A DNA stretch of 16,424 nucleotides from Candidatus Ratteibacteria bacterium (lineage in GTDB: Bacteria > Ratteibacteria > UBA8468 > B48-G9 > DTJG01), in assembly GCA_049971295.1 (NCBI GenBank), contig JBMFLH010000040.1:1-16424 (forward strand). The letters are read 5' to 3'. The first letter of the stretch is position 1. The number at the start of each line of letters is the position of its first letter. Below are positions 1 to 4,363 of the stretch, in pieces. Under the pieces are notes generated by a model. That model made no database searches, was not told the DNA's origin, and saw nothing but the letters and a program-made list of their open reading frames with translations. The translations under genes and the position numbers were made by a program.

Positions 1-19
1 TCAAATCCCTCACCCTCCG
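1..19 (+). tRNA. 3' end of a tRNA, probably tRNA-Ser (cut by the window start; CCA not encoded)
   Basis: TCAAAT (T-loop 55-60), CCCTC (3' T-stem), ACCCTCC (3' acceptor strand) and G discriminator give exact tRNA geometry. U70-C71-C72-G73 matches tRNA-Ser acceptor identity. A T-rich tract follows (20-32). The anticodon is outside the window. Confidence 0.7.
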
Positions 20-35
20 TTTTTTCTTCTTTGAA

Positions 36-283
36 AGGGATTTGAACTGGAGCGGTGCTGGTGCGAGGAAGAACGAGCACTGTATAGCACAAAGGGCGAG
101 AAGGTGAGCCCGTTGACCGAAGCGTAGTGTGCAAGACGATGTATAAGTCCGAGCAAGCGAGGACTTATGCGGCTGGTTGCCAGTGCGATGGAGAAAGAGC
201 ACTGATTGGCAAGCCTGCCGAGAAGGTGAGGCAGGCCGGATCGACCCGAGCCGTAGTGGGCCCGAGGGCGCTCAAATCCCTCA
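36..283 (+). repeat. GC-rich structured non-coding element (putative ncRNA or REP/MITE-like element) with terminal inverted repeats and an internal duplicated hairpin module
   Basis: AGGGATTTGA (36-45) is complementary to TCAAATCCCT (272-281). Hairpins at 55-90, 94-111, 141-170, 177-212 and 213-236, plus weaker ones at 113-134 and 241-265. CGAGAAGGTGAG is repeated at 97-108 and 219-230. Confidence 0.75.
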
Positions 284-525
284 TCGGTGACCTTCCCAAG
301 TTTTTTCTATCCTTGCTGGAGAGGATACATGTGATGGGTGTCTTTGAAGAAACCATTATCTTGAAGTTTTGCAACATGTTTTTGTTTTCGCTAACAAAAT
401 GGATGCTGAGGACTTTCCAAAATTTAATTTGACCAGGTCAAAAAAAACTGTAAACTATTCTTGAAATCGATGCGTAATCGTATGTTTTAGTACAATCCAT
501 ATATCATTCAGGCGAATAGAAATTT

Positions 526-1011
526 ATGAAAATTTTTCCTGAAAATTGGCGTGTTGCTTTACTGAGAACAACTTGCGTAATAATATTGTTGATTGTAACA
601 AGAATCTATTTTATCCAGTGGTTTCGTGCATTTGGCATGAGCATGGAACCCACAATAAAAGATGGTTCAATAGTCCTTGTTAATAAACTTGCTTACAGAT
701 TCCATTCTGTGAAAAGAGGCGATATTGTCATTTTCAGGACCTCGAATAGACCCTATGTTTATTTTATCAAAAGAGTAATTGCCTTTTCAGGAGAAATTGT
801 TGAGTTCAAAAATGGACAACTCTATATCAATGGACATGAAGTATCTGAGATCTATCTTGCCGAAAAAGGAAACTGGGATGTGAAACCATTTACTGTGAAA
901 CAACATCATATCTTTGTATGCGGAGATAATAGATTGACTGACTGGGATGCCCACTTTCATCCTCAAATTTCAACCAAAAATATTATTGGCAAAGCCATTG
1001 GTTACAGATGA
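526..1011 (+). CDS. lepB: signal peptidase I (S26 family)
   Basis: One N-terminal TM segment, GMSMEPT (catalytic Ser), RGDIVIF, FIKRVIA (catalytic Lys) and GDNR box. Confidence 0.92.
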   Translation: MKIFPENWRVALLRTTCVIILLIVTRIYFIQWFRAFGMSMEPTIKDGSIVLVNKLAYRFHSVKRGDIVIFRTSNRPYVYFIKRVIAFSGEIVEFKNGQLYINGHEVSEIYLAEKGNWDVKPFTVKQHHIFVCGDNRLTDWDAHFHPQISTKNIIGKAIGYR

Positions 1012-1466
1012 AAATAGCAAAATTAATAATCAGAGTGTTTTTGTTTCTGATACTAGCCACTACGGCAGGCATTGCTGTGAAATTGATATTTTTTCCTGAT
1101 GAAAATGCAAAAATTAAAAAGACCCTTTCAATGACAATAGAAGAACTTGAAAATAAACAAATAAATGAATTTATCAGGCACTTTACTCTTGATTACAGAG
1201 ACGGTTTTGATAACACCTATGGCACTCTTTACATCTTTTTGAAAAACAACATCAATATGTGCAAGTATCTTGATATAAATATAAGCCAGCTGGAAATTGA
1301 AAGGGAAAAATCACATGCAATAGTGAAATTTTTTGCCACCGCTTATATTGAAACTACCGATGGAGAACGATATAAAGAAGCTGGTAGATTTGTACTGAAA
1401 ATGCGCAAGGAAGATTTCAAATGGCGCATATACAGGCTTGACGAAATGGAATATGAGTTTGATTGA
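1008..1466 (+). CDS. membrane-anchored hypothetical protein, probable NTF2/SnoaL-like fold
   Basis: N-terminal hydrophobic anchor, helical start, beta-rich end finishing LKMRKEDFKWRI (typical NTF2-like last strand). ATGA overlap with the lepB stop. Confidence 0.65.
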   Translation: MKIAKLIIRVFLFLILATTAGIAVKLIFFPDENAKIKKTLSMTIEELENKQINEFIRHFTLDYRDGFDNTYGTLYIFLKNNINMCKYLDINISQLEIEREKSHAIVKFFATAYIETTDGERYKEAGRFVLKMRKEDFKWRIYRLDEMEYEFD

Positions 1467-1499
1467 AACATGGATTTTCCATCTCATCACACATACCAC

Positions 1500-1528
1500 T
1501 TGACAAACTAAATATAGTGTATTAGAAT
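1500..1528 (+). promoter_or_regulatory. sigma70-type promoter of the nrdR-nrdD operon
   Basis: TTGACA (1500-1505), 17-bp spacer, TAGAAT (1523-1528). Confidence 0.85.
1505..1520. promoter_or_regulatory. NrdR box 1
   Basis: AAACTAAATATAGTGT matches the consensus acaCwAtATaTwGtgt at 14/16 and lies in the promoter spacer. Confidence 0.85.
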
Positions 1529-1536
1529 ATGAAAAA

Positions 1537-1552
1537 ATACAATATATTGCGA
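1537..1552. promoter_or_regulatory. NrdR box 2
   Basis: ATACAATATATTGCGA keeps the CwAtATaTwG core. It starts 32 bp after box 1, the typical tandem NrdR box spacing, and abuts the nrdR ATG. Confidence 0.85.
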
Positions 1553-2031
1553 TGAAATGCCCATATTGCGGTTTCATGGAAGACCGTGTAATTGACTCGA
1601 GAGAAAGTGAGGATGGTTTGCAAATACGTAGAAGAAGGGAATGTTTGCGTTGTGAAAAAAGATTTACCACTTATGAAGAAATTGAAGAAAAACCATTGAT
1701 TGTAGTCAAAAAAGATGGAAGAAGAGAAAAATTCAATAGAGAAAAAGTTTTTAATGGAATCCAGCGAGCATGTGAAAAAAGGCCAATCAGTACAGAACAA
1801 ATTACAACGATTGTTGACGAACTTGAACAGGAATTGAAGCAGAGGTTTGAAAAAGAAGTGTCATCAAAGGATATTGGTGAAATGATTATTGAAAAACTTC
1901 GTAAACTTGATGAGGTTGCATATGTCCGTTTTGCTTCAGTATATAGACAGTTTAAAGATGTTTCAGAATTTCAAAAAGAAGTAGAAAACATAAAAGGGGC
2001 TTATCATGACCCAGGGAATAAACACCAGTAA
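1552..2031 (+). CDS. nrdR: transcriptional repressor NrdR
   Basis: MKCPYC...VIDSR...IRRRRECLRCEKRFTTYE zinc ribbon, ATP cone (VVKKDGRREKF) and LDEVAYVRFASVYRQF. Confidence 0.98.
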   Translation: MKCPYCGFMEDRVIDSRESEDGLQIRRRRECLRCEKRFTTYEEIEEKPLIVVKKDGRREKFNREKVFNGIQRACEKRPISTEQITTIVDELEQELKQRFEKEVSSKDIGEMIIEKLRKLDEVAYVRFASVYRQFKDVSEFQKEVENIKGAYHDPGNKHQ

Positions 2032-4363
2032 AATTGAATTCATTCAAAAAAGAGATGGCAGAATTGTTCCTTTTGAAAAGGCAAAAATAGCAGAAGCGAT
2101 TTTTAAAGCAGCACAGAGTGTTGGAGGCCAGGACAGGTATCTTGCTGAAGACCTTGCAGAAGCAGTCACGGTTTATCTGAACAAAGAATTTAAAGGGAAA
2201 ATTCCAACTGTTGAAGAAATTCAGGATATCGTGGAAAAGGTTTTGATAAAAACAGGACATGCGAAAACAGCCAAGGCATACATTCTTTACAGGGAGAAAA
2301 GAGCAAGAATAAGACAGATTAAGCAGGGAATCATTGAAAAAGCCATTCTTGAAGAACAACAGGAAATTGCAAAAATAAAGGAATCTACAGACCTGAGTCT
2401 TTTTGTAAGGACCAGTGGTGAGGATATCGTTTTATGGGATATTGAGAAAATTGTGGATTCACTGGTAAAAGAGACAGGTATTGAACGAAATGTTGCTACT
2501 TTTATAGCCACAGAGGTGAAAAAGGAGATTATCGCATCAAAGGTGAAAAATCTTACAGCTCCTTTAATCAGAGAGATGGTAAATGCTAAACTGGTTGAAT
2601 TTGGCATGGAAGAGGCAAGAAGAAAATATACCAGGCTTGGATTGCCATTGTATGATGTAAAAAACATTATTTTCAGTCCGAACAAAGAAAATGCAAATAT
2701 TCCTCATAATCCTGAAGCAACCAACCTGACATTGGCAGAGCAGATAAAAAAAGAGTTTGCACTACTTGAGGTTTTTTCTCCGGAAATTTCAGATGCACAT
2801 CTGAGTGGAGATTTACACCTGCATGACCTTGGATTTATTGATAGGCCATATTGTTCAGGGCAATCCCTTGAATACGTGAAAAAATTCGGGCTACATCTTC
2901 CCAACGCCCTTTCAATTGCAAAACCAGCAAAGCATCCTGAAACCCTTCTTGCGCACATGGTGAAATTTTCCGCTGCTCTTCAGGGACATTTCAATGGCGC
3001 AATTGGATGGGATGCTGTCAACATATTTTTCGCTCCATTCCTTGAAGGTGCATCTGACAAAGAAATGAGACAGCTGGCTCAAATGCTTATCTATGAATAC
3101 AGCCAGCAGGCAGTTGCAAGAGGTGGACAGGCAATTTTCAGCGATATCAATCTGTACTGGGAAATACCGGACCATTTCATTGATGTGCCTGCGATAGGTC
3201 CTGGGGGAAAAGAAACCAGGAAGAAATATGGGGAATATCAGCAAACCGCGCAAAGATTCGCAAAGGCGCTTTTTGAGGTTTACCTTGAAGGAGACGGCAT
3301 AGGGAGACCGTTTTTCTTTCCCAAGCCGCTTCTTCACATCACAAACAGATTTTTTCAAACACCTGGTCACGAGGAATTTCTTGAATTTGTCAGCCTTGTG
3401 GCAGCAGAAAAGGGCAATACCTATTTTGTTTTTGACAGGGATAATACCGCAAGAATCAGTGAATGTTGTAGATTGTCATTCAAGCTTGAAGCATCCGATA
3501 TAGAAGACGCTAAAACCCCATGGAAAATGAGGTTTTCAGCCCTGCAGAATGTAACATTGAATTTACCGAGGGTTGCATACAACTCCAATCACGATGATTC
3601 CAAACTTTTTCAAAATCTTGAGAACCTGATGAATCTTGCAGTCAAAGCTCATATGGCGAAGCGGCGCTTCATAGAGACACTTCTATCGTACGGTCAAAAC
3701 GGACCTCTTGCGCTTCTAACCATGAACCTTGACGGCGAACCATATTTGAGAATGCACAGAGTGACTCATCTGATAGGACTTCTTGGTCTCAATGAAATGG
3801 TTCAATATCACACAGGCAATCAACTGCATGAATCTGACGATGCCTTTAAGTTTGGGCTGAAGGTAGTGTCGTTCCTAAAAATTTTGTGTGACCGCAAGAC
3901 AAAAGAAACAGGATTGAGATTTGTACTGGAACAAACACCAGCAGAATCAACCGCACACCGACTTGCAAGATTGGATTATGAACACTTTCCTTCACAGAGT
4001 GCCCAGGTATTAAAAGGAACCATGCCGGATAAGGTTTATTACACAAATTCCACATATCTGAATATTTCTGAGCCACTATCTCCTATAGAAAGGGTTAAAA
4101 AAGAAGGAATTTTTCATCCTCTTATTGAAGCAGGCGCTCTTACTCACATATGGCTTGGTGAGAGTAAACCAGACGCAAAGGCACTATCAAACTTTGTCGT
4201 CAAGGTATTTCAGCATACGAAAAATGCTCAGATTGCTTTCAGTCCAGAATTTACCTCGTGTCTTGACTGTGGAAGGGTTTACAGAGGCATTTCAAAAGAA
4301 TGTCCATGGTGTTCCACGGTAAATAAAGGTGTAATAAAAATAAATGCACAACAAAACAGTTGA
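2006..4363 (+). CDS. nrdD: anaerobic (class III) ribonucleoside-triphosphate reductase, catalytic part lacking the C-terminal glycyl-radical domain
   Basis: Two N-terminal ATP cones, AHLSGDLHLHDL, RPYC (C283), SECCRL finger loop (C487/C488), NVTLNLPR, EQTPAES, YYTNS and a CLDC...CPWC zinc site. The stop comes before any RxxGY motif. Confidence 0.95.
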   Translation: MTQGINTSKIEFIQKRDGRIVPFEKAKIAEAIFKAAQSVGGQDRYLAEDLAEAVTVYLNKEFKGKIPTVEEIQDIVEKVLIKTGHAKTAKAYILYREKRARIRQIKQGIIEKAILEEQQEIAKIKESTDLSLFVRTSGEDIVLWDIEKIVDSLVKETGIERNVATFIATEVKKEIIASKVKNLTAPLIREMVNAKLVEFGMEEARRKYTRLGLPLYDVKNIIFSPNKENANIPHNPEATNLTLAEQIKKEFALLEVFSPEISDAHLSGDLHLHDLGFIDRPYCSGQSLEYVKKFGLHLPNALSIAKPAKHPETLLAHMVKFSAALQGHFNGAIGWDAVNIFFAPFLEGASDKEMRQLAQMLIYEYSQQAVARGGQAIFSDINLYWEIPDHFIDVPAIGPGGKETRKKYGEYQQTAQRFAKALFEVYLEGDGIGRPFFFPKPLLHITNRFFQTPGHEEFLEFVSLVAAEKGNTYFVFDRDNTARISECCRLSFKLEASDIEDAKTPWKMRFSALQNVTLNLPRVAYNSNHDDSKLFQNLENLMNLAVKAHMAKRRFIETLLSYGQNGPLALLTMNLDGEPYLRMHRVTHLIGLLGLNEMVQYHTGNQLHESDDAFKFGLKVVSFLKILCDRKTKETGLRFVLEQTPAESTAHRLARLDYEHFPSQSAQVLKGTMPDKVYYTNSTYLNISEPLSPIERVKKEGIFHPLIEAGALTHIWLGESKPDAKALSNFVVKVFQHTKNAQIAFSPEFTSCLDCGRVYRGISKECPWCSTVNKGVIKINAQQNS

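What the first reader, a model, noticed from the sequence alone, without database searches (positions are those of the whole stretch)
55..265. Duplicated three-hairpin module with GA-N6/8-GA capped loops and stem covariation, directly behind a tRNA
Seen in sequence: modules 55-134 and 177-265 are diverged copies about 122 nt apart, flanking a 10-bp central hairpin (141-150/161-170, loop GA-GCAAGC-GA). H1 (55-90) and H1' (177-212) share the same geometry (6 bp, 4-nt 3' bulge, GTGC/GCAC, GA-N8-GA loop) while the lower stems differ (GTGCTG/TAGCAC vs TTGCCA/TGGCAA). H2 (94-111) and H2' (213-236) have an identical GAGAAGGTGA loop on unrelated but fully paired stems (GGGC/GCCC vs GCCTGCC/GGCAGGC). 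H3 and H3' share C-GA-NN-CGTAGT-G but are weaker. Five loops are closed by C-GA...GA-G. G-T wobbles (60/85, 142/169) favour folding of the + strand. Established: tandem sheared G-A pairs cap K-loops in RNA and stabilise ssDNA hairpins in REP-like elements. Inference: changed stems with conserved loops indicate selection on structure, as a multi-site protein-binding ncRNA co-transcribed with the tRNA or a non-autonomous element handled as ssDNA. I do not recognise it as a named family.
Basis: partly seen in the sequence, partly recalled or inferred. Interest (0 to 1): 0.85.

Follow-up and report, generated by a model that had tools for sequence, protein, structure and literature searches.

The report
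tRNA-linked hairpin repeat array
The hairpins are real and conserved by structure, but they are stacked copies of a small repeated DNA module that fills the space behind many tRNA genes in one uncultivated bacterial phylum, laid out much like the poorly understood tRNA-linked repeats of E. coli.

Summary
Every hairpin pairs at the stated coordinates. The two halves are two copies (54-116 and 176-238) of one 63-nt two-hairpin module. Across 40 distinct copies, 14 of 19 base pairs show compensatory changes, and G.T pairs outnumber A.C pairs 66 to 12, so the tRNA-sense strand folds.

It is not a single ncRNA gene. It is one long unit of a multi-copy array behind tRNA-Ser(UGA). In this genus each unit is framed by an inverted copy of that tRNA's T loop and 3' T stem (36-46) and by a direct copy of the tRNA 3' end (272-283). 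The module occurs in 44 of 65 genomes of the phylum (Ratteibacteria-like), nests inside itself, and in one relative sits in frame inside an ABC-ATPase gene. It therefore behaves as a DNA insertion unit.

Rfam has no match. I found no link to a RAYT-like gene, and no reverse transcriptase, TnpB, Cas1 or L7Ae was detected in this genome. The closest known layout is the E. coli tRNA-linked repeats, whose tyrT unit also carries an inverted and a direct tRNA-end copy. Earlier notes of this scan describe the same layout in Patescibacteria and archaea. The mechanism is unknown.

The parts
1..19 (+). Copy of the 3' end of tRNA-Ser(UGA), from T55 to the discriminator. It is most likely the repeat that closes the preceding short unit, not the gene itself.
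   Evidence: [quoted passage not shown] Window 1-55 equals C28 1-55 on the minus strand at 100%. ARAGORN finds no complete tRNA in the window.
20..35 (+). A/T-rich spacer TTTTTTCTTCTTTGAA.
   Evidence: The same ..CTTCTTTGAAA spacer precedes the inverted copy behind several different tRNAs.
36..46 (+). Inverted copy ('antiT', AGGGATTTGAA) of tRNA positions 54-64, that is the T loop plus the 3' T stem.
   Evidence: It is the reverse complement of TTCAAATCCCT of tRNA-Ser(UGA). In 23 of 27 distinct tRNA-linked junctions there is an exact 9-15 nt inverted copy of the local tRNA ending at the complement of T54. Bases 36-45 pair 10 of 10 with 272-281.
47..54 (+). Conserved left junction CTGGAGCG.
   Evidence: The pattern GAA(N)TGGAGCG occurs in 12 of 12 genomes of the genus at 5-33 matches each, against 0-6 for the reversed control. 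GCG 52-54 pairs with CGC 269-271.
54..116 (+). Module copy A. It consists of H1 (55-90: outer stem, 4-nt 3' bulge, inner stem, tandem G.A, one covarying pair, hexaloop) and H2 (91-114: 7-position stem with one A.G mismatch in this copy, tandem G.A, G.T pair, tetraloop).
   Evidence: The covariance model R1 hits at 86 bits. Covariation was counted and pairing.
115..137 (+). Linker GACCGAA, the H3 mini-hairpin (122-125/129-132, two G.T pairs) and the AAGAC tail of the module.
   Evidence: Pairing is shown. H3 stems vary with compensation between copies (GCAC/GTGC, GCCC/GGGC, GCGC/GCGC). H1-H2-H3 up to ..CAAGA is the unit inserted in the ABC-ATPase gene of G036.
138..173 (+). Central hairpin C (core 141-150/161-170, loop GAGCAAGCGA). 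It is part of the tRNA-linked frame unit.
   Evidence: It pairs 10 of 10. It is present in the short units behind other tRNAs. Identical variants are shared by different tRNA loci of one genome.
176..238 (+). Module copy B, consisting of H1' (177-212) and H2' (213-236).
   Evidence: The covariance model R1 hits at 75.5 bits. This insert is absent from the orthologous tRNA-Ser(UGA) unit of genome G009 and present in G008.
239..271 (+). P-GA-Q hairpin (P 245-247/266-268; Q degenerate in this copy) and the conserved right end GAGGGCGC (264-271).
   Evidence: Covariation in 19 other copies gives 114 of 114 cells paired, with 4 of 6 pairs compensatory. The direct tRNA copy is directly preceded by ..CGC in 17 of 20 units.
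272..283 (+). Truncated direct copy (TCAAATCCCTCA) of the tRNA-Ser(UGA) 3' part, starting at T55.
   Evidence: It is a 12-nt match to window 1-12. Relatives at the same tRNA-Ser/lepB locus carry the full copy through the discriminator.
301..327 (+). Probable decayed start of a further, older unit (TTTTTTCTATCCTTGCTGGAGAGGATA), that is a spacer plus junction without the inverted copy.
   Evidence: I compared it by eye with 20-54. Similar decayed spacer and inverted-copy remnants lie at the far end of other arrays. This is inference.
127..432 (+). It is not a gene.
   Evidence: It has no Pfam family. It runs across the element and unrelated flank. Copies differ by module-sized insertions and deletions, and stems change in compensating pairs.
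526..1011 (+). First gene after the array: signal peptidase I (lepB-like). It is context only.
   Evidence: Pfam Peptidase_S26, E 4.8e-37. The same gene follows the array in G001 and G008.

Best explanation
Window 20-283 is one long unit of a tRNA-linked repeat array behind tRNA-Ser(UGA). Its body is built from nested copies of a phylum-specific hairpin module: H1+H2 twice, plus H3, hairpin C and the P-GA-Q hairpin. These modules behave as small non-coding DNA insertion units of the REP/BIME or Rickettsia-palindromic-element kind. They fold on the tRNA-sense strand, they land at or in existing hairpins, and copies within one genome are kept alike. In this genus the landing frame is made from the tRNA itself: an inverted copy of positions 54-64 on the left and a direct copy from position 55/56 to the discriminator on the right. 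Arrays look intact next to the tRNA and decayed at the far end. Shown here: the structure and which strand folds, the multi-copy modular nature, the tRNA-specific inverted and direct copies, nesting, an in-frame insertion polymorphism in a gene, and the phylum-wide spread. Inferred: modules are handled as single-stranded DNA of the sense strand (the lagging-strand template or the non-template strand). New units enter at the T-loop position of the true tRNA copy, with duplication of the segment from C56 onwards. Arrays then change by unequal recombination and gene conversion. The inverted copy is kept matched to the tRNA by selection for the hairpin or by templated correction. The enzyme, if there is one, is unknown. 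By analogy with E. coli RttR, the unit is probably co-transcribed with the tRNA and trimmed to the copied tRNA end, possibly as a by-product.
For: Multi-copy and tRNA-linked. Of 45 tRNA genes in the genome, 9 are followed within 90 nt by the junction, and 5 more carry remnants or an unassembled gap followed by a tRNA-end copy. Across the genus I found 27 distinct junctions behind at least 13 tRNA types. Of these, 23 have an exact 9-15 nt inverted copy of their own tRNA. Twenty have a direct copy, and 18 of the 20 start 18-21 nt from the tRNA end. The inverted copy extends into the acceptor strand in one case (15 nt, tRNA-Val), so it complements the 3' strand and does not copy the 5' T stem. 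T-loop changes are matched in the inverted copy: tRNA-Arg(CCG) in G000 against G007, and tRNA-Leu(UAG) in G000 against G038 of another family with the same spacer. DNA-level insertion. Modules are nested in the H2 loop and in the P-GA-Q hairpin of other copies. H1'-H2' is present or absent at the orthologous tRNA-Ser locus. In G036 a hairpin plus H1-H2-H3 lies in frame in an oppD-like gene of 364 aa. Orthologs of 321-337 aa lack residues 121-160, and G030 shows the unfilled site. Copies lie at contig ends. Concerted evolution. Identical hairpin C occurs at three tRNA loci of G001 and at two of G000. Structure and strand are supported. Spread: 44 of 65 genomes of the phylum, in all five families, with up to 51 hits in one genome. 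Polarity: decayed spacer and inverted-copy remnants lie at the far end of arrays. The E. coli tyrT unit has the same layout, and the annotated 3' end of RttR is the end of the copied tRNA end.
Against: No mobilising enzyme was found. The single RAYT-like gene does not co-occur with the element: it is in 9 of 30 genomes with the element and in 5 of 11 without. In this 92%-complete genome there were no hits for RVT_1, TnpB or Cas1, and two IS110-like genes show no similarity to the element. Near-identical modules behind different tRNAs each carry copies of their own tRNA, which no known transposition or integration mechanism explains. The module scores 72-88 bits across a whole phylum with invariant loop bases, and that would also fit a functional RNA. 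All tRNA-linked copies are co-oriented with the tRNA, so RNA and sense-strand DNA cannot be told apart. The claim of in-frame genic insertion rests on one locus. No excision product, circle or recent insertion between strains was seen.
Confidence: 0.55

Rival explanations
1. Functional tRNA-trailer RNAs. Each unit would be a structured RNA co-transcribed with the tRNA and cut out by the tRNA 3'-end machinery, because it ends in a copy of the tRNA end paired to the inverted copy. The repeated C-GA...GA-G hairpins would be binding sites for one protein, giving a scaffold or sponge like E. coli RrA/B/F or 3'ETS-leuZ.
For: Covariation is strong, the tandem G.A pairs and loop bases are invariant, and the sense strand folds. 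The module is conserved across the phylum. Units are always co-oriented with the tRNA. The helix between the inverted copy and the T arm tolerates a T.G wobble (tRNA-Lys CUU in G000) and keeps a tandem G.A (CGAG against CGAG) behind tRNA-Lys(UUU) in three genomes, as a structural helix would. E. coli TLR RNAs are transcribed and processed, and three of them bind Hfq and CsrA (PMC8144298, passages read). The annotated RttR ends exactly at the copied tRNA end.
Against: The number, order and content of modules differ at orthologous loci. Modules nest inside each other, and one lies inside a coding frame. Of 73 evaluable modules, 44 are not in a tRNA frame. Terminal units decay. No L7Ae-family gene was found. 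No RNA data could be laid.
Confidence: 0.25
2. REP/REPIN-type elements moved as single-stranded hairpins by the genome's RAYT-like (IS200-like Y1 HUH) transposase.
For: The genome has one single-copy Y1_Tnp-family gene of 227 aa, next to a CCCTCACCC..GGGTGAG hairpin. The hairpins are strand-specific. Some H3 and P-Q loops contain GTAG.
Against: Homologs at E<=1e-5 occur in 14 of 41 relatives. In the genus, apart from G000 itself, only a weak match in G006 was found, although all 11 other genomes of the genus carry the element. The gene is in 9 of 30 genomes with the element and in 5 of 11 without. The gene is not flanked by the modules. GTAG is not conserved among copies.
Confidence: 0.07
3. 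Scars of integrase-borne elements (attL/attR repeats of a shrunken island or CIME) at a tRNA integration hot spot.
For: There is a direct repeat of the tRNA 3' end starting in the T loop, tandem arrays occur, and the tRNA stays intact.
Against: The same body sits behind at least 13 tRNA types, each with that tRNA's own repeat. No integrase lies next to any copy. The genome has two tyrosine recombinases elsewhere, of Xer-like size. An attachment site does not explain the inverted copy or the nesting.
Confidence: 0.05
4. The region encodes the 101-aa protein (127-432).
For: The frame is open.
Against: It has no Pfam family. The frame leaves the element for unrelated flank. Copies differ by module-sized insertions and deletions, and substitutions compensate in stems.
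Confidence: 0.01

Closest known systems
E. coli tRNA-linked repeats (TLRs: rtT/RttR units of the tyrT-tyrV operon; rrA/rrB/rrF behind 5S rRNA)
   Same: Both are units directly behind a tRNA gene on the same strand, one to several in tandem, each ending in an 18-21 nt copy of the upstream gene's 3' end that starts in the T loop. The E. coli description comes from PMC8144298, passages read. I also found a 10-nt inverted copy (GGGGAAGGAT, positions 59-68 of tRNA-Tyr) in each of the three E. coli tyrT units. Function and origin are unknown in both.
   Different: No sequence relationship is shown. Rfam has no match. A model of the short unit hits the E. coli units at only 8.9 bits, E 0.096. A local alignment is merely suggestive: score 32 against 19.95 +/- 3.4 in shuffles, with 1 of 300 shuffles as high. 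Here the body is a mosaic of a separate mobile two-hairpin module that also lives away from tRNAs, the copied end lacks CCA, and at least 14 tRNA loci per genome are affected.
REP/BIME mosaic elements and REPINs with RAYT transposases (recalled from memory)
   Same: Both are short, structured, high-copy, mostly intergenic repeats combined in mosaics. Both show strand-specific hairpins and within-genome homogeneity.
   Different: There is no cognate RAYT association, no conserved GTAG, and no REP doublet. The units carry target-derived inverted and direct copies, which REPs do not.
Rickettsia palindromic elements (RPE; recalled from memory)
   Same: Both are hairpin repeats of about 100-150 nt with no known transposase. 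They occur in intergenic DNA and RNA genes and are inserted in frame into protein-coding genes (for one case here).
   Different: The lineage and sequence are unrelated. Only one genic case was seen here. RPEs are not known to copy the end of a tRNA.
tRNA-gene integrating islands and their integrase-less remnants (recalled from memory)
   Same: Both show a direct repeat of the tRNA 3' part, an intact tRNA and tandem occupancy.
   Different: Here there is no integrase, the repeat is specific to each tRNA while the body is shared, and there is an extra inverted copy.

Membership tests
tRNA-linked repeats (TLR), by layout | Lies immediately downstream of a tRNA or rRNA gene, on the same strand | tested here: met
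   Nine of 45 tRNA genes of G000 have the junction within 90 nt, and 27 distinct junctions were found in the genus.
tRNA-linked repeats (TLR), by layout | The unit ends with an 18-19 bp copy of the 3' end of the upstream gene | tested here: met
   Twenty of 27 junctions show the copy, and 18 of the 20 start 18-21 nt from the tRNA end. The window's own terminal copy is cut to 12 nt.
tRNA-linked repeats (TLR), by layout | One to five tandem units per locus | tested here: met
   There are two units at tRNA-Ser(UGA) (C28 plus the window), at least two at tRNA-Arg(CCG), and three full units plus a terminal partial one at tRNA-Lys(UUU) of G005.
tRNA-linked repeats (TLR), by layout | Transcribed with the tRNA and processed to a discrete RNA | not testable with these tools
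   No run on record as RNA holds the stretch. For E. coli this is known only from annotation and from PMC8144298.
tRNA-linked repeats (TLR), by descent | Sequence or structure homology to the E. coli units or to Rfam's RtT family (the family name is recalled) | tested here: inconclusive
   Rfam has no match. Model R2 scores 8.9 bits, E 0.096, on the E. coli units. The local alignment z-score is about 3.6.
REP/REPIN with RAYT | A cognate single-copy RAYT gene co-occurs with the repeats and is flanked by them | tested here: not met
   The gene is in 9 of 30 genomes with the element and in 5 of 11 without. Its flanks hold another hairpin, not the module.
REP/REPIN with RAYT | Conserved 5' GTAG beside the hairpin (feature recalled from memory) | tested here: not met
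   GTAG occurs in the window's H3 and P-Q loops but is replaced in many copies, for example GCACGAAGTGC.
K-turn / K-loop RNA bound by L7Ae-family proteins | A 3-nt bulge followed directly by tandem G.A pairs (feature recalled from memory), and an L7Ae-family protein in the genome | tested here: not met
   The tandem G.A pairs lie 5 bp from the 4-nt bulge, inside the hairpin. PF01248 has no match in this 92%-complete genome.
Integrase attachment-site scar | One element-specific attachment sequence, with an integrase at one end or in full-length relatives | tested here: not met
   The repeats are those of each local tRNA, for at least 13 tRNA types. The two tyrosine recombinase genes lie on other contigs.
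Rickettsia palindromic element-like selfish hairpin DNA, by behaviour | In-frame insertion in conserved protein genes, polymorphic between relatives | tested here: met
   One locus shows it: the oppD-like gene of G036 compared with G045, G038, G030 and G031.
Any Rfam family | A match at the gathering score | tested here: not met
   There were 0 matches in the window. The best sub-threshold match on 1-340 scored 16.3 bits against a cut-off of 40.

The most novel reading that the evidence does not exclude
The units record an undescribed way of inserting DNA behind stable-RNA genes, one that copies the target. A small hairpin element would enter at the T-loop position and in the process write both an inverted and a direct copy of the last ~20 nt of the gene. 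The tRNA stays intact and the array grows from the tRNA side, rather like repeat duplication at a CRISPR leader. The same process would underlie the E. coli TLRs and the look-alike tRNA trailers that this scan noted in Patescibacteria and archaea. It would need either a new enzyme or a hairpin-driven template switch.
Probability: 0.2. Interest if true: 0.85.

Novelty: new variant of a known kind. Interest (0 to 1): 0.6.

Why it matters
tRNA-linked repeats were first described in E. coli in 1978 (Egan and Landy, as cited in PMC8144298), and that paper states they still have no known function. It gives no account of their origin either. This phylum offers a much richer case. Dozens of units per genome lie behind many tRNAs, the boundaries are clear, the structure is backed by covariation, units are gained and lost between species, and the body module also moves on its own. 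That makes two questions testable by comparison: how such trailers arise, and whether their RNAs do anything. On the practical side, these repeats break assemblies at tRNA genes, create spurious open frames, and can sit inside real genes in frame, so annotators should mask them.

Tried and rejected
- **Rfam:** the gathering scan of the window and the E<=10 scan of 1-340 gave nothing meaningful.
- **Expression:** no RNA holder was listed. Nine DNA metagenome runs held only small shares of the stretch, so I laid no reads.
- **Candidate enzymes in the own genome:**
  - RVT_1, TnpB (PF07282), Cas1 and L7Ae gave no hits.
  - An IS110-like gene is split over contigs C113 and C106, and a second lies on C102. 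Neither resembles the element.
  - The two tyrosine recombinases lie elsewhere.
- **RAYT co-occurrence:** tested, and no association found.
- **Orientation of non-tRNA copies relative to neighbouring ORFs:** the sample was too small and noisy to use.
- **Homology to the E. coli TLR:** not shown.
- **The 101-aa ORF:** no family.
- **Literature:** five full-text searches found no description of this family or of tRNA-trailer repeats in Ratteibacteria. I saw only listings and abstracts, except for PMC8144298, where I read passages.
- **Mechanisms considered and not supported:**
  - Classical attP/attB exchange would give hybrid tRNAs.
  - Reverse transcription from mature tRNA does not fit, because the copy has no CCA and no RT was found.
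  - Simple snap-back priming lacks the needed 3' microhomology.
  - Symmetric staggered cuts at two inverted T-loop sites give junctions 2 nt out of register and need a pre-existing inverted copy.
- **Which tRNA copy the inverted copy tracks:** 26 units were equal, 2 matched the upstream copy better and 0 the downstream copy, which is too few to decide.
Full report
**What is there.** Window 1-19 is the last 19 nt of tRNA-Ser(UGA). ARAGORN finds no whole tRNA in the window. The gene lies on contig C28, whose end overlaps window 1-55 at 100%. On C28 the tRNA is followed by a short unit and then by a second copy of its own 3' end, so window 1-19 is most likely that second copy.

The order of parts in the window is as follows:
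- an A/T spacer (20-35)
- AGGGATTTGAA (36-46), the reverse complement of the tRNA's T loop plus 3' T stem
- CTGGAGCG (47-54)
- H1 (55-90), H2 (91-114) and H3 (122-132)
- the central hairpin (141-150/161-170)
- H1' (177-212) and H2' (213-236)
- a last hairpin and the conserved end GAGGGCGC (264-271)
- TCAAATCCCTCA (272-283), a truncated direct copy of the tRNA 3' part

Bases 36-45 pair 10 of 10 with 272-281, and GCG 52-54 pairs with CGC 269-271, so the whole body is closed by a helix built from tRNA-derived sequence.

**Checking the observation.**
- I collected 40 distinct copies from this genome and relatives. On the structure 'outer stem, 4-nt bulge, inner stem, tandem G.A, one pair, hexaloop; then 7-bp stem, tandem G.A, G.U, tetraloop', 91.8% of 760 cells pair, against 76.5% in shuffles.
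- Of the 19 pairs, 14 change on both sides. None of 500 shuffles reaches the covariation score, and slid controls pair at 22-43%.
- The single pair above the tandem G.A in H1 shows all four Watson-Crick types.
- G.T cells number 66 against 12 A.C cells, so the strand of tRNA sense is the one that folds.
- A model built from these copies hits 54-116 at 86 bits and 176-238 at 75.5 bits.
In 19 other copies this pairs in 114 of 114 cells, with 4 of 6 pairs compensatory. The window's copy has a degenerate Q helix.

Rfam has no match at gathering scores and only noise at E<=10. The 101-aa frame has no family and runs out into unrelated flank.

**It is a repeat family tied to tRNA genes.**
- The element matches 12 places in its own genome, several at contig ends.
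- Of 45 tRNA genes, 9 are followed within 90 nt by the same junction: Ser-GCU, Leu-UAG, Ser-UGA, His, Arg-CCG, Lys-UUU, Lys-CUU, Val-GAC and Leu-UAA.
- Five more carry remnants, or in the case of Gln-CUG a run of N followed by a copy of the tRNA end.
- The layout is always: tRNA, A/T spacer of 13-19 nt in most copies, inverted copy of that tRNA's own positions 54 to about 64, (N)TGGAGCG, hairpin modules, ..GAGGGCGC, then a direct copy of that tRNA from position 55/56 to the discriminator.
- Over the genus I counted 27 distinct junctions behind at least 13 tRNA types. Of these, 23 have an exact 9-15 nt inverted copy, one has 6 nt, and three have mismatched ones.
- A direct copy is visible in 20 of the 27. 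Eighteen of the 20 start 18-21 nt from the tRNA end, and 17 of the 20 are directly preceded by ..CGC.
- One inverted copy runs 15 nt into the acceptor strand, so it complements the 3' strand and does not copy the 5' T stem.
- The inverted copy follows T-loop changes: TTCGACT with GTCGAA in G000 against TTCAACT with GTTGAA in G007 for tRNA-Arg(CCG), and the matching pair for tRNA-Leu(UAG) between two families that share the spacer TTGCACTCTTCTTTGAAA.
- Where the inverted copy is imperfect, it shows a T.G wobble or a tandem G.A (CGAG opposite CGAG behind tRNA-Lys(UUU), in three genomes).

**Modules behave as DNA insertions.**
- The short unit has a junction, hairpin C and the P-GA-Q hairpin. It exists without H1-H2-H3 and without H1'-H2'.
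- At the orthologous tRNA-Ser/lepB locus, species differ in the number of units and in the presence of H1'-H2'.
- Modules are found nested in the H2 loop (after GGTG) and in the P-GA-Q hairpin of other copies.
- Of 73 evaluable module copies from a scan of one genome per species, 29 sit in tRNA frames and 44 do not. Many of the copies I read outside tRNA frames lie beside C-rich/G-rich hairpin repeats.
- In G036 such a hairpin plus H1-H2-H3 lies in frame in an oppD-like ABC-ATPase gene of 364 aa. Orthologs of 321-337 aa lack residues 121-160. G030 shows the hairpin without the module, and G031 carries a different small insert.
- Identical hairpin-C variants are shared by different tRNA loci of one genome: three loci in G001 and two in G000. 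This points to gene conversion or recent spread.
- Far ends of arrays carry decayed spacer and inverted-copy remnants, while units next to the tRNA are intact (window 301-327, by eye).

**Distribution.**
- BLAST finds the element in 30 of 41 relatives, including all 14 other genomes of its family.
- The module model finds it in 44 of 65 genomes of the phylum, in all five families, with up to 51 hits per genome.
- In the species-wide scan the record titles are mostly MAGs labelled Ratteibacteria, Omnitrophota or TA06, with a few other labels. Earlier notes of this scan call the organism Ratteibacteria-like.

**What moves it.** This remains unknown.
- The one RAYT-like gene has homologs in 14 of 41 relatives. 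In the genus, apart from G000 itself, only a weak match in G006 was found. It occurs in 9 of 30 genomes with the element and in 5 of 11 without.
- RVT_1, TnpB, Cas1 and L7Ae were not found in this 92%-complete genome.
- Two IS110-like genes and two tyrosine recombinases lie elsewhere and show no link to the element.
- Ordinary site-specific exchange in the T loop would create hybrid tRNAs. The copied end lacks CCA, which argues against copying from mature tRNA.

My working model is inference. I propose sense-strand single-stranded handling of hairpin modules that land at existing hairpins. New units would enter at the T-loop position of the true tRNA copy, with duplication of the segment that follows. 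Unequal recombination and conversion would then reshape the arrays. The inverted copy would be kept matched either by selection for the helix or by templated correction of the imperfect palindrome, a mechanism I recall from E. coli work.

**Closest known.**
- PMC8144298 (passages read) states that E. coli has 22 TLRs at ten loci, with one to five per locus. Each has 18-19 bp at its 3' end identical to the end of the upstream tRNA or rRNA gene. They have no known function, although RrA/B/F are processed and bind Hfq and CsrA.
- I read the tyrT-tyrV locus. Each 178-nt unit ends in AATCCTTCCCCCACCACCA and also contains GGGGAAGGAT, an inverted copy of tRNA-Tyr positions 59-68. The annotated sRNA RttR ends exactly at the end of the copied tRNA end.
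- The layout is therefore the same as here, inverted copy included.
- Descent from a common element is not shown.
- Other notes of this scan describe inverted-plus-direct tRNA-end copies around hairpin elements in Patescibacteria, DPANN-type archaea and haloarchaea. I did not re-test those.

**Verdict.** The thing is a new, phylum-specific variant of the tRNA-linked repeat layout, and its body is a mobile two-hairpin module. I favour selfish or neutral structured DNA that is probably co-transcribed with the tRNA (0.55) over a dedicated functional RNA (0.25). The unexplained part is how each unit comes to carry both an inverted and a direct copy of its own tRNA's end, and that is what makes it worth following.

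Noticed in passing
L026 1121-2212 (= L248, genome G036); compared with L249-L252: An oppD-like ABC-ATPase gene carries, in frame and without stop codons, a C/G-rich hairpin plus an H1-H2-H3 module, about 40 extra residues in all. Orthologs in the same genus lack the module. One ortholog has only the hairpin, and another has a different small insert at the same spot.
   Followed up: yes
L256 (E. coli K-12 tyrT-tyrV-rttR region): Each 178-nt tRNA-linked repeat unit holds a 10-nt inverted copy (GGGGAAGGAT) of tRNA-Tyr positions 59-68 as well as the known 19-nt direct copy. The annotated 3' end of RttR is the last base of that direct copy. The paper passages I read mention only the direct repeat.
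   Followed up: partly
G000 contig C12, just after tRNA-Gln(CUG) (about 29830-29960): A run of N directly after the tRNA is followed by a copy of the tRNA's 3' end from the T loop on (CAAATCCTAGTCCCCCAG). This is probably another unit that is unassembled or masked.
   Followed up: no
L021, L089, L090, L190 and other loci of family f2: There are tandem arrays of a second repeat of about 50 nt (GGGTGAGGGG, a C-rich arm, a short loop, GGGGAGAGGG). The H1-H2-H3 module sits at a fixed point between GGGGAGAGGG and GGGTGAGGGG. Simple hairpins of the form C-run, TTTGAAAA-like loop, G-run are also common in these genomes.
   Followed up: no
G000 C9:17173-17853 (L029 1228-1911, minus strand): A single-copy IS200-like Y1 (RAYT-like) gene of 227 aa is followed by a CCCTCACCC..GGGTGAG hairpin. 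Homologs are patchy among relatives and do not track the tRNA-linked element.
   Followed up: yes
G000 C113 end / C106 start, and C102: Two different IS110-family transposase genes are present. One is split across two contigs by the assembly.
   Followed up: partly
G000 C68 (tRNA-Lys UUU), L039 (G005), L130: The inverted copy behind tRNA-Lys(UUU) reads ..GGACGAGAA instead of the expected ..GGACTCGAA in three genomes. Opposite the T loop this gives a tandem G.A (CGAG/CGAG), the same motif that closes every module loop.
   Followed up: partly
G000 tRNA list: None of the 8 tRNA genes that encode their CCA end carries the element, against 14 of the 37 that do not. A CCA-bearing tRNA-Asp in G010 does carry it, so this is at most a tendency.
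   Followed up: no
window 526-4363: Downstream genes are ordinary: signal peptidase I, a small unknown protein, NrdR, and the anaerobic ribonucleotide reductase NrdD.
   Followed up: partly
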